DNA of 5,483 nucleotides. It comes from a virus (lineage: Duplodnaviria; Heunggongvirae; Uroviricota; Caudoviricetes). Position 1 is the stretch's first letter. Every line of letters starts with the position of its first letter. Positions 3,001-5,483 of this stretch are shown here, in pieces. Made by a program: the position numbers. The stretch is from the IMG/VR virus record IMGVR_UViG_2671180846_000019. One strand, given 5' to 3'.

Positions 3001-5483
3001 TTATTGTCTTCCTTTTTTTTGAATGGTGCGCGTATTTTACATACATGAGTTTGTAATACAAGGTGCGTAATCAATATGATGTTTTATAATTGCGTGAGAC
3101 AATTGATTTATTCGTTTTTTATTGCGGTTTTTATTATCTTTTAATGTAACGGTGTTTTTATTAAGTGTGTTTGCGTGGTGTTTTATGTTTTTTATAATTT
3201 TTATTTTATTAAATTTAAAAGCATTAGTAATGGCTATTCTATATAGCAATATAAGAACTGTTACAAAAAAAGGGGGGCAATTACAGGTAGTTATGGATGA
3301 TGAGTGAAACAGATATTGGAGAACCGGGGAATGAATGATGTCTGAGTCTTATATATCAGAACTCCTTCGCTGTCGCTGGGGGCTCCTGTGCTTATGTCGT
3401 TTCCCCGATTCGGTTTTGAACGATTACCGAATGTTGAAGAATTATGCCAAAATATAGAAAGGATTTACTGCATGAATACCCAATATTTACAGTATGTTCG
3501 TGAGCAACTTATGGCAGCTACTGCTGACTTGAACGGAGCAACGAAAGGCCAGCTCGAAGCCTGGCAGGAGCATGCACAATTTGATACTGGTACATACAAA
3601 CGAAAGAAGCCGCGCATTCTGGATGTGGTAACTGGCAAGATGATTACGCTGGATAATACGCCGACTTCCGGTAAGCAGTCGTACGCAAAAGGTTCATCCA
3701 TTGCTTTGGTCAGCCCGGTTGAATTCTCAACCTCTTCATGGCGCCGCGCGGTTTTGTCTCTCGATGAACATCAGAAAGCATGGTTGCTTTGGTGTTACAG
3801 CGAAAGCGTTCGATGGGGGCATCAGGTCACCATAACGCAATGGGCATGGAGCGAGTTTAAAGATTTGTTAAGTAACAGAAAAATTGCAGGTAAGACACTG
3901 GATCGCCTGAAGACGTTAATCTGGCTGGCTGCACAGGATGTGAAGAGCGAACTTGCAGGGCGTGAGGCCTATGAATACCAGACACTGGCATCATTGGTGG
4001 GAGTGACAACAAAAAACTGGTCCGAGACATTTACTGAACGCTGGGTTGCAATGAAGCACATTTTTCTACAGCTTGATAGTGATGCTTTATTGCTTGTGAC
4101 GAGAACACGTTCAAAACAAAAGGCAGCATTTTTACAGCAAAATATTGCAAAACTGGATTAAAAGCCATATACTTCATGCAAATTTGGTATGTTGTAAAAA
4201 ATGTATAAACCCGCTGCCGAGTGGGTTTTTTTTATGCCCTGAGTTGTACTTGTACGGTAAACATGCTGGCTGCTATGTAATAGAGTTTTTTTAGCCTGTA
4301 ACCTCTTGACGGCATTGAATTGCTTTTGTTATGAGTTGTAAGCCAATGTTATCATCTTGTATTGGGGTGGTTATGAAGGATGGTGCGCTGCTCAGGAGTT
4401 CTTCACTTTTTATTGCCTACATGGGATGCCTTGGATGGGGGAGTGCTTATTTCTATGGATGGGGTACTTCTTTTTACTACGGCTTCCCATGGTGGATTGT
4501 AGGTGCAGGTGTTGATGATGTTGCCAGAAGTTTATTTTTTGCAGTTATCGTCATTGCTATATTTCTTATCGGTTGGGGTATTGGTGTTGTATTCTTTTTC
4601 GCAGTGAAAAGAAAACATTCTATGCAAGAGCTAAATGTATTTCGCCTTTATTTTGCTGTGGAATTATTGTTTGTGCCGGCAATTATTGAGTTTTCTATAT
4701 TGAGACAGAAGATTCAGGTACCTCTTTTGCTACTGTCAGCAGCGATTGCGCTGGCGGTTACAATTTCGATAAGATCTTATGGGCGATTTTTATCGGTATC
4801 ATGCTTCTATGATAAGCCATTTATAAAAAAACATTTTTTTGAGATTGTGATGATTGCTTTTGTGGCATATTTCTGGCTTTTTTCATTTCTGACAGGATAT
4901 TACAAACCACAGTTTAAGAAAGAATATGAAATGATTAATTATAATGATGGTTGGTATTATGTTCTTGCTCGTTATGATAATTGTCTGGTTTTGTCTACTT
5001 CTTTCAATGCAGGTAGTAAAAGGTTTGTCATTTATCAATCAGCACAAGATAAGAATCTTCAGGTTGATATTGTAAGGACCAGAATTTAATTGGCTGCATA
5101 AATAATATTTTAAGTTGCAAGTTGGCTATTCGTAGGAATAGAACCTTAGGCATGCTGAATGCGTTTTCTGAACATTGTTTTATAAACTGTGTCTGCTTGC
5201 TGTTGTGATCCTGCTTTTAGTGATGGTGATGATGGATTTCACCAGCAGGATAATGTTGGTACTGACTGATGGCGCTCTGGTCTGCGGCATTGTGGTATTG
5301 CTGTGGCCGATGATGAAAGAACAGAATGAATAATTCTTGACTTTTTTGTTTACTGTTTATTAAAAAATCAACCGCATGGTGAATCCTCCTTGGAGGGGCT
5401 AAATGATCGAGTTTTAAGGGCACGTAGCGAGTTCTGTTTGATCATTGCAGAACTTAGCGGGAGGCGCCATGCGTACATCACTA

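What the first reader, a model, noticed from the sequence alone, without database searches (positions are those of the whole stretch)
3388..4161. Q-like protein of uncertain family with an ambiguous start
The protein occupies the Q position, but I cannot place it in the lambda, 21 or 82 Q families from sequence. The first 28 codons (GTG 3388 to 3471) lack an SD and contain an inverted repeat ATTCGG...CCGAAT (about 3410-3440), while ATG 3472 has a reasonable SD, so the true start and a possible regulatory hairpin upstream deserve checking.
Basis: inference. Interest (0 to 1): 0.4.

Follow-up and report, generated by a model that had tools for sequence, protein, structure and literature searches.

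The report
Ordinary phage-82-type Q antiterminator gene
This is a well-known phage 82-type Q late-gene antiterminator of an E. coli lambdoid prophage, which starts at ATG 3472, so the 28 extra upstream codons and the small hairpin in them are a gene-calling artefact and a chance repeat.

Summary
The ORF 3388-4161, its GTG, the ATG at 3472 with an AGGA Shine-Dalgarno, and the ATTCGG/CCGAAT repeat (3408-3413 / 3427-3432) are all present.

The family is not uncertain. The protein hits Pfam PF06323 (the Q82 family) at E=1.7e-91. It is 89% identical, 229/229 residues without gaps, to phage 82 Q. The Q module is 100% identical in DNA to phage 434 and to EHEC O26/O111 prophages, and the protein is the Q of O157 CP-933K.

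The start is ATG 3472:
- Profile and DNA homology begin exactly there.
- RefSeq and the phage 434 record annotate it there.
- 48 of 49 related loci have a start codon at that position.
- Only this allele has GTG/ATG 28/26 codons upstream.

The upstream 84 nt belong to a YlcG-family ORF in another frame. The hairpin is weak (-9.1 kcal/mol, z -0.7 to -1.7), as frequent as chance, and lost in the closest relatives.

Downstream lies the expected late promoter: TTGCAA 4145 and TATACT 4168. It is followed by an extended -10-like pause element (4185-4193) and an intrinsic terminator (4207-4235). This geometry is conserved in 46 Q82-type loci.

Verdict: already known; low interest.

The parts
3472..4161 (+). 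Q82-family late-gene antiterminator Q, 229 aa plus stop. This is the true gene.
   Evidence: PF06323 E=1.7e-91 with model positions 1-216 on residues 32-247 of the long ORF; PHROG 304 model position 1 falls on residue 29, which is M at 3472. 203/229 identical to phage 82 Q with no gaps. Annotated at exactly these coordinates in RefSeq (WP_001097238.1) and in phage 434 (UMO75331.1). 116 of the 120 best homologues are 229 aa.
3388..3471 (+). The 28-codon 'N-terminal extension' of the mechanical ORF. It is not part of Q.
   Evidence: No profile or homologue covers it. GTG 3388 is GCG and ATG 3394 is ATA in phage 82, and PhiR47_2 has an in-frame TAG inside it. Among 49 loci only the window has start codons at -28/-26. 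DNA homology among Q82 loci with different upstream genes begins at the ATG.
3338..3457 (+). YlcG-family small ORF (39 aa; 40 aa from ATG 3335) in a different frame. It covers the supposed extension and the inverted repeat.
   Evidence: RefSeq WP_077249715.1 'YlcG family protein' and phage 434 CPT_434_66. Homologous to phage 82 orf45, which there overlaps Q as ATGA. No Pfam hit, and synonymous versus non-synonymous counts do not single out its frame.
3459..3463 (+). Shine-Dalgarno (AAGGA) for Q, 8 nt before ATG 3472 and 1 nt after the ylcG-like TAG stop.
   Evidence: Read from the sequence. The RBS is annotated in phage 434. A purine-rich GGAG/AGGA-type motif sits 6-11 nt upstream of the homologous start in nearly all 49 loci even where the upstream sequence is unrelated.
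3408..3432 (+). Inverted repeat ATTCGG-13 nt-CCGAAT. A chance-level, allele-specific hairpin.
   Evidence: -9.1 kcal/mol, z -0.74 and -1.73, 5.5 such repeats per kb. The homologous segments of phage 82, PhiR47_2 and RothC fold at -4.7, -3.1 and -3.4 kcal/mol into other shapes.
4145..4173 (+). Candidate late promoter pR': -35 TTGCAA (4145-4150, inside the last Q codons), 17-nt spacer, -10 TATACT (4168-4173). Inferred start site about 4180.
   Evidence: Consensus scan. The same geometry occurs in 46 Q82-type loci: TTGCAA exact in 37, and TATATT, CATATT or similar at a 17-nt spacing. The start site is inferred, not measured.
4185..4193 (+). Extended -10-like element TGGTATGTT in the initial transcribed region (about +6 to +14). 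Candidate sigma70-dependent pause element that would place the pause near +25 (about 4204).
   Evidence: TGnTAnnnT at this fixed distance in 42 of 46 loci, and TAnnnT in all 46. The phage 82 pR' pause at +25, with the QBE and pause element within -31 to +30, is reported in PMC4914094. Function here is inferred.
4207..4235 (+). Intrinsic terminator (9-bp stem AAACCCGCT/AGTGGGTTT, GCCG loop, U-tract). The target of Q-mediated read-through.
   Evidence: The leader fold is -15.8 kcal/mol, z -2.55. Annotated as a terminator in phage 434. A terminator lies within about 100 nt of the inferred start in 42 of 46 Q82 loci.

Best explanation
The gene is a phage 82-type Q protein of 229 aa, translated from ATG 3472. 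It is the late-gene transcription antiterminator of a lambdoid prophage.

Inferred mechanism, by homology with phage 82 Q:
1. A Q dimer binds a Q-binding element within the late promoter region that starts inside the end of its own gene (-35 at 4145, -10 at 4168).
2. It engages RNA polymerase held by sigma70 at a promoter-proximal pause near +25. The pause is set by the extended -10-like TGGTATGTT at 4185-4193.
3. With NusA, Q stays on the elongation complex and makes it read through the intrinsic terminator at 4207-4235 and later terminators. This switches on the downstream accessory, lysis and morphogenesis genes.

The 28 codons upstream (3388-3471) are not part of the protein. They lie in the YlcG-family ORF read in another frame. 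The GTG/ATG there, and the small hairpin, are peculiarities of this allele with no conserved role.

Shown here: family membership, start position, and conserved cis-element geometry. Inferred: DNA binding, the pause position, and antitermination activity.
For: Family:
- PF06323 E=1.7e-91, and no other Pfam family at E<=0.1.
- PHROG 304 'anti-termination protein Q-like' E=3e-108.
- 89% identity, 229/229 residues collinear, to phage 82 Q.
- PF06323 is named as the Q82 family in PMC9388147.

Identity to known genes:
- Window 3300-4330 is 100% identical to phage 434 OL657226, where the gene is annotated 'Q82-like'.
- Window 1600-4330 is 100% identical to EHEC chromosomes, and 2141 of 5426 complete E. 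coli genomes hold a match.
- The same protein is recorded as the CP-933K Q of O157:H7 EDL933.

Start:
- Both annotations use 3472.
- Homology collapses immediately upstream of the ATG in loci whose upstream gene is rusA, ninG or something else.
- 48 of 49 loci have ATG or GTG at the homologous codon and 42 encode 229 aa. Many have an in-frame stop fewer than 28 codons upstream.

Cis elements:
- Promoter, pause element and terminator geometry is conserved in 46 loci.
- Similarity to other Q82-type phages continues only about 33 nt past the stop codon and then ends. This fits a Q-specific loading site inherited together with Q.

Against: - No experiment on this allele was found.
- The start site, the pause position and the exact Q-binding element are inferred. 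The promoter spacer overlaps the last Q codons, so its conservation is confounded by coding.
- The structure model is only moderately confident (mean pLDDT 65; the N-terminal 86 residues are poor). It gave no significant match to solved Q21 or Q-lambda structures.
- In the window's own prophage, which differs from 434 upstream, Q function is assumed rather than shown.
Confidence: 0.93

Rival explanations
1. A longer isoform (257 aa from GTG 3388, or 255 aa from ATG 3394) is really made, alone or beside the 229-aa form. It would overlap the ylcG-like ORF and carry an extra N-terminal segment.
For: The frame is open back to a TGA at 3343. GTG 3388 and ATG 3394 exist, with a weak SD-like GGGGG run at 3378-3382. 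Public records hold both long forms: AAG55112.1, 257 aa, called on 672 contigs; and a 255-aa form on 31 contigs.
Against: The extension matches no profile. The start codons are absent in phage 82, which shares the open frame, and PhiR47_2 has a stop there. None of 48 other loci has a comparable start at -28/-26. RefSeq and the curated phage 434 record chose 3472. An open run of 42 codons is not rare by chance (about 0.13 for random sequence; my own estimate).
Confidence: 0.04
2. The ATTCGG/CCGAAT hairpin (3408-3432) is a regulatory RNA structure that controls Q or ylcG translation or transcript stability.
For: A perfect 6-bp stem, extendable to 7 pairs, with MFE -9.1 kcal/mol. In a tight 41-nt context only 16 of 200 shuffles fold as well.
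Against: z is only -0.74 in a 51-nt context, and the 121-nt region as a whole has z -0.06. Such repeats occur 5.5 times per kb in the window. The hairpin ends 26 nt before the SD and does not sequester it. No U-tract follows it. Its right arm is held by the conserved YlcG residues D-Y-R, while the left arm is mutated in phage 82 and PhiR47_2 with no compensating change.
Confidence: 0.03
3. The gene is a decayed or repurposed prophage remnant that no longer acts as the late-gene antiterminator in this host.
For: The surrounding prophage is mosaic. It holds a truncated lambda-type Q remnant at 1823-1912 and an IS600 nearby in strain E2865, and several downstream genes are pseudogenes.
Against: The ORF is intact, full length, and identical in DNA to the only full-length Q annotated in the fetched 9-kb nin-to-lysis stretch of the phage 434 genome record. 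Its promoter, pause element and terminator are intact and of the conserved type.
Confidence: 0.03

Closest known systems
Phage 82 Q antiterminator (82Q; X92588 CDS CAA63332.1; the founding member of Pfam PF06323)
   Same: Same length (229 aa) and 89% identity without gaps. Same N-terminus, MNTQYLQYVREQL. Same upstream neighbours (YbcO, RusA, small ylcG-like orf45). Same family profile.
   Different: 26 substitutions. In phage 82 orf45 overlaps Q as ATGA; here the ylcG-like ORF ends at a TAG 14 nt before the Q ATG. The phage 82 record ends at the Q stop, so its own promoter region could not be compared directly. PhiR47_2 (88% DNA identity) served as a proxy.
Phage 434 (OL657226) CPT_434_67 'transcriptional activator/anti-terminator, Q82-like', and the E. 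coli O157:H7 prophage CP-933K Q (AAG55112.1)
   Same: Identical sequence. Window 3300-4330 matches phage 434 at 100%. The 229-, 255- and 257-aa readings of this very ORF are all in public databases.
   Different: Only the annotated start differs between records: 257 aa in the 2001 EDL933 annotation against 229 aa in RefSeq and phage 434. Upstream of the lambda-Q remnant the window carries Rha/KilAC-YbcO-RusA-NinH, whereas phage 434 has NinG-NinI there.
Q-lambda (PF03589) and Q21 (PF06530) families
   Same: Same genomic position and same regulatory job: loading at a sigma-dependent promoter-proximal pause and read-through of late terminators (PMC9388147).
   Different: No sequence similarity: no Pfam hit at E<=0.1 and no PDB sequence or profile hit. 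The structure model gave no Q21 or Q-lambda match among the top 50 Foldseek hits. Whether Q82 forms a closed nozzle like these two is stated as an open question in PMC9388147.
Pseudomonas aeruginosa AlpA antiterminator (PDB 7xya, 7xyb)
   Same: The best Foldseek PDB matches of the model are chain G of the AlpA-loading and AlpA-loaded complexes. A published AlphaFold comparison already reports that 82Q resembles AlpA, with a C-terminal helix-turn-helix and an N-terminal ring-like segment (PMC9371919).
   Different: The match is weak (E 0.44-0.98, TM 0.30-0.39, 12-14% identity) and not significant on its own. That chain G is AlpA rests on its length (158-168 residues) and was not checked by name.

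Membership tests
Q82 family (Pfam PF06323, Phage_antiter_Q) | Significant full-length match to the family profile, above the curated cut-off | tested here: met
   306.3 bits against a cut-off of 25, E=1.7e-91, model positions 1-216 of 220. PHROG 304, model positions 1-223 of 224.
Q82 family (Pfam PF06323, Phage_antiter_Q) | Collinear homology to the founding member, phage 82 Q | tested here: met
   203 of 229 residues identical, no gaps, E=1e-153.
Q82 family (Pfam PF06323, Phage_antiter_Q) | Gene lies between the nin/rusA region and the late promoter, terminator and lysis genes | tested here: met
   NinF, Rha/KilAC, YbcO, RusA and NinH lie upstream. Promoter and terminator lie directly downstream. 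Holin and endolysin lie further downstream in phage 434.
Q82 family (Pfam PF06323, Phage_antiter_Q) | Cognate late promoter with a -10-like sigma70 pause element in the early transcribed region, followed by an intrinsic terminator | tested here: met
   TTGCAA-17-TATACT, then TGGTATGTT at about +6 to +14, then a terminator at about +28 to +56. The same geometry occurs in 46 loci. This is sequence pattern only.
Q82 family (Pfam PF06323, Phage_antiter_Q) | Binds its QBE, engages the RNA polymerase paused at +25, and confers terminator read-through (stimulated by NusA, with beta-flap contact) | not testable with these tools
   Known for phage 82 Q (PMC4914094). No experiment on this allele was found.
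Q-lambda family (Pfam PF03589) | Match to the family profile | tested here: not met
   No hit at E<=0.1 for the 3388-4161 product. A separate 29-codon lambda-Q N-terminal remnant lies at 1823-1912 and is annotated as a fragment or pseudogene.
Q21 family (Pfam PF06530) | Match to the family profile or to solved Q21 structures | tested here: not met
   No Pfam hit, no PDB sequence or profile hit, and no Q21 entry among the top 50 Foldseek matches (the model is of moderate quality).

The most novel reading that the evidence does not exclude
In this lineage three changes set the allele apart from phage 82:
- The ylcG-like ORF is cut short by a TAG 14 nt before the Q start, whereas phage 82 has an ATGA overlap.
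- The allele has gained in-frame GTG and ATG codons.
- It has gained a 7-bp hairpin inside ylcG.

Together these could retune Q translation, through loss of translational coupling, a minor long isoform, or local mRNA structure. That would shift the timing or threshold of the late switch in EHEC prophages. Nothing in the evidence requires this reading; it is merely not excluded.
Probability: 0.04. Interest if true: 0.25.

Novelty: already known. Interest (0 to 1): 0.07.

Why it matters
For genome annotation, the result settles the start. ATG 3472 (229 aa) is correct, and the 257-aa and 255-aa entries still present in older O157:H7 records are over-extended calls that run into the ylcG-like gene.

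Biologically it is a textbook element. Q82-type antiterminators control late genes in many enterobacterial prophages, and sequence similar to the 1600-4330 stretch (lpxR, ylcG, Q) is found in about 40% of complete E. coli genomes.

The only open question it touches belongs to the whole family and is not specific to this window. No experimental structure of a Q82-family protein exists, and whether it works as a closed RNA-exit 'nozzle' like Q21 and Q-lambda is unresolved (PMC9388147).

Tried and rejected
- **NCBIfam:** no model matched the Q protein.
- **PDB by sequence or profile:** nothing related.
- **Structure prediction:** AlphaFold2 with 60 homologues at 72-88% identity gave mean pLDDT 65. 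Residues 87-219 are confident and the N-terminal third is poor.
- **Foldseek:** no hit at E<=0.001 in the PDB; the top hits were the AlpA complexes at E 0.44-0.98. In BFVD the only significant hit was another Q82-family protein.
- **Synonymous versus non-synonymous counts** over 3338-3457 against phage 82 and PhiR47_2 did not discriminate between the three frames: 4-6 synonymous and 12-15 non-synonymous changes in each. The coding status of the ylcG-like ORF therefore rests on annotation and frame conservation only. It has no Pfam hit.
- **Phage 82 pR' sequence:** I looked for published template sequences, but the supplement of PMC4914094 is not held and further text searches gave nothing more. 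The exact QBE bases could therefore not be mapped.
- **CII-site pattern:** the TTGYN6TTGY pattern annotated as 'paQ' in phage 434 occurs 3 times in the window against 1.8 expected. That is chance level.
- **Rfam:** nothing at the gathering threshold. A weak STnc240 match covers the pR' leader (E=0.42).
- **RNAalifold:** no consensus structure for the leaders of the long-leader class on a MAFFT alignment.

Full report
**1. What is in the sequence**

The mechanical ORF 3388-4161 (+ strand, 257 aa, GTG start) exists.
- ATG 3472 is in frame, and the stop is TAA 4159-4161.
- The frame is open back to a TGA at 3343. A second in-frame start, ATG 3394, is also present.
- AAGGA at 3459-3463 lies 8 nt before ATG 3472.
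- GTG 3388 is preceded only by a GGGGG run at 3378-3382.
- The inverted repeat is exact: ATTCGG 3408-3413 and CCGAAT 3427-3432, with a 13-nt loop.

**2. Family**

The product is not of uncertain family.
- It matches Pfam PF06323 (Phage_antiter_Q) at E=1.7e-91, 306 bits against a cut-off of 25. No other Pfam family matches at E<=0.1.
- It matches PHROG 304 'anti-termination protein Q-like' at E=3e-108.
- PMC9388147 names PF06323 as the Q82 family, PF03589 as the Q-lambda family and PF06530 as the Q21 family.
- Against the phage 82 Q gene itself (X92588), the protein from ATG 3472 is 203/229 identical with no gaps.

At the DNA level:
- Window 3300-4330 is 100% identical to phage 434 (OL657226). 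There the gene is annotated 'Q82-like' with the note that close homologues use the downstream MNT start.
- Window 1600-4330 is 100% identical to prophages in EHEC O26/O111 chromosomes. 2141 of 5426 complete E. coli genomes hold a match to this stretch.
- An exact look-up shows the same protein is the 'antiterminator Q of prophage CP-933K' of O157:H7 EDL933.

**3. Start codon**

Five independent lines point to ATG 3472.
- (a) Profile homology begins there: PHROG model position 1 falls on residue 29 of the long ORF, and Pfam position 1 on residue 32.
- (b) RefSeq (WP_001097238.1) and the curated phage 434 record both annotate 3472-4161.
- (c) 116 of the 120 best database homologues, down to 72% identity and from six genera, are 229 aa.
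- (d) Eight loci have different upstream genes (ylcG-like, rusA, ninG and others). In an alignment of them, similarity starts at the ATG and is absent upstream, except among the loci that carry a ylcG-like gene upstream (phage 82, PhiR47_2 and, in part, RothC).
- (e) I compared 49 loci: the window, 7 phages and 41 GTDB species genomes.
  - 48 have ATG or GTG at the homologous codon, and 42 encode exactly 229 aa.
  - Many have an in-frame stop fewer than 28 codons upstream.
  - Nearly all have a GGAG/AGGA-type motif 6-11 nt upstream.
  - Only the window has start codons at -28 and -26.

In phage 82 the two extra start codons read GCG and ATA, and PhiR47_2 has a TAG inside the 'extension'.

The ambiguity is real only as an annotation history. 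The 257-aa form (AAG55112.1) was called on 672 contigs, the 255-aa form on 31, and the 229-aa form on at least 1000.

**4. What the upstream 84 nt are**

They lie in a YlcG-family ORF (RefSeq WP_077249715.1; phage 434 CPT_434_66). This ORF is homologous to phage 82 orf45 and is read in a different frame.
- In phage 82 that ORF overlaps Q as ATGA.
- Here a TAG at 3455-3457 ends it 14 nt before the Q start, directly before the SD.
- Its coding status is not proven. It has no Pfam hit, and substitution patterns do not favour any frame.

**5. The hairpin**

- It folds at -9.1 kcal/mol. Its z-score is -0.74 (51 nt) or -1.73 (41 nt), and the 121-nt region around the start has z -0.06.
- Perfect 6-bp inverted repeats with a 3-20 nt loop occur 30 times in this 5.5-kb window.
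- The hairpin ends 26 nt before the SD, does not include it, and has no U-tract.
- In phage 82 and PhiR47_2 the left arm is changed (ATTCGG to GTTCTG) with no compensating change in the right arm. The homologous segments fold at -4.7, -3.1 and (RothC) -3.4 kcal/mol into other shapes.
- The right arm coincides with the conserved D-Y-R codons of the YlcG frame.

I conclude that it is a chance, allele-specific repeat.

**6. How the element works (shown and inferred)**

A sigma70-type promoter sits directly at the end of the gene.
- The -35 is TTGCAA 4145-4150, inside the last Q codons.
- A 17-nt spacer follows, then the -10 TATACT 4168-4173.
- Counting 7 nt from the -10 puts the start near 4180. 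This is inferred.

At 4185-4193 lies TGGTATGTT, an extended -10-like sequence. At 4207-4235 lies an intrinsic terminator, which phage 434 also annotates.

Across 46 Q82-type loci the geometry is fixed.
- TTGCAA is exact in 37.
- TATATT or a similar hexamer follows at 17 nt.
- TGnTAnnnT sits at the same distance in 42, and TAnnnT in all 46.
- A terminator lies within about 100 nt in 42.

Similarity between Q82-type phages of Escherichia, Enterobacter and Klebsiella runs about 33 nt past the Q stop and then ends. That is what one expects if the Q-specific loading site travels with Q.

[quoted passage not shown] It also shows that 82Q needs the QBE, contacts the beta-flap tip helix, and is helped by NusA when the nascent RNA is short (PMC4914094). 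A -10-like element at about +9 to +14 fits a pause near +25.

By homology, the 229-aa protein loads on the paused complex near 4204 and carries RNA polymerase through the terminator that begins 3 nt later. The activity itself was not and cannot be tested here.

**7. Structure**

- No solved structure is related by sequence or by profile.
- An AlphaFold2 model from 60 homologues has mean pLDDT 65. Residues 87-219 form a confident helical C-terminal region, and the N-terminal third is poorly defined.
- Foldseek finds nothing significant in the PDB. The top hits are chain G of the AlpA-loading and AlpA-loaded complexes (E 0.44 and 0.98, TM 0.30-0.39). No Q21 or Q-lambda entry is in the top 50.
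- This weak result agrees with a published AlphaFold comparison stating that 82Q resembles AlpA (PMC9371919). It adds nothing new.
- PMC9388147 lists as an open question whether Q82 uses a closed nozzle. That is a family-level question, not a feature of this window.

**8. Comparison and verdict**

The gene is a known member of a known family and is identical to annotated genes in phage 434 and in EHEC prophages.
- The hairpin idea is not supported.

Novelty: already known. Interest: low.

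Noticed in passing
window 1823-1912 (+): A 29-codon remnant of a lambda-type Q gene (MRLESVAKFHSPKSPMMSDS...) directly follows ninH. It is annotated as a pseudogene 'antitermination protein' in RefSeq and as an N-terminal fragment of lambda Q in phage 434. A lambda-type Q was evidently replaced by the module lpxR(-)/ylcG/Q82/pR', so this marks a clear mosaic junction.
   Followed up: partly
window 2038-2997 (-), flanked by AT-rich DNA at 1913-2037 and 2998-3300: An LpxR-family lipid A deacylase gene (PF09982, E=7e-40; PHROG 2309) sits on the opposite strand between the nin region and Q. Early rightward transcription must cross it antisense to reach Q. It looks like a moron.
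   Followed up: no
window 5344-5483 (+), continuing beyond the window end (L003 6245-6449): A sub-threshold Rfam match to the sRNA family STnc100 (RF02076). In the window it scores 33 bits and is cut by the window end. The full-length copy in the E2865 chromosome scores 41.4 bits against a gathering score of 47, E=1.6e-7, covering model positions 1-206 of 206. It may be a divergent prophage sRNA downstream of the DUF3927/TciB-like gene.
   Followed up: partly
window 4168-4237 (+): A weak Rfam match to sRNA STnc240 (28 bits against a gathering score of 55, E=0.42). It spans exactly from the candidate pR' -10 to the terminator, which is the short terminated leader RNA of the late promoter. Not significant.
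   Followed up: no
L004-L050, about +12 to +37 of the inferred pR' transcripts; the window (4180-4235) is the exception: Q82-type loci fall into two leader classes.
- Six loci, including the window, have the terminator stem starting at about +28.
- About 35 have it at +42 to +59, one at +70. Most of these carry an intervening hairpin just after the pause element, with arms that differ between sequence groups (GTCG/CGAC, TGCCA/TGGCA, GCTGCC/GGCGGC).
The registers differ by 1-3 nt, and RNAalifold on a MAFFT alignment found no consensus structure. The hairpin's role is unknown to me.
   Followed up: partly
window 4137-4150 (-): TTGCAATATTTTGC fits the CII-site consensus TTGYN6TTGY. Phage 434 annotates it as a CII site with a 'paQ' -35, and it overlaps the palindromic pR' -35 TTGCAA. 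The pattern occurs 3 times in the window against 1.8 expected, so it is not distinguishable from chance.
   Followed up: yes
window 866-915: A run of 50 N masks part of the Rha/KilAC antirepressor gene (369-992). The intact gene in E2865 is 723 nt.
   Followed up: no
window 4346-5089 and 5175-5333 (+): Two small membrane-protein genes lie between the pR' terminator and the lysis region. One is a 247-aa hypothetical (PHROG 1521, no Pfam family). The other is a 52-aa DUF3927/TciB-like protein (PF13064; PHROG 1470, 'inhibition of cell division or resistance to colicin'). As the first genes of the Q-dependent late transcript, they are accessory cargo.
   Followed up: no
window 3388-4161; public records AAG55112.1, AIF92411.1, AJA24775.1: Older O157:H7 annotations carry over-extended 257-aa and 255-aa versions of this Q that overlap the ylcG-like gene. 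Gene callers produced the 257-aa form on 672 contigs of the collection.
   Followed up: yes
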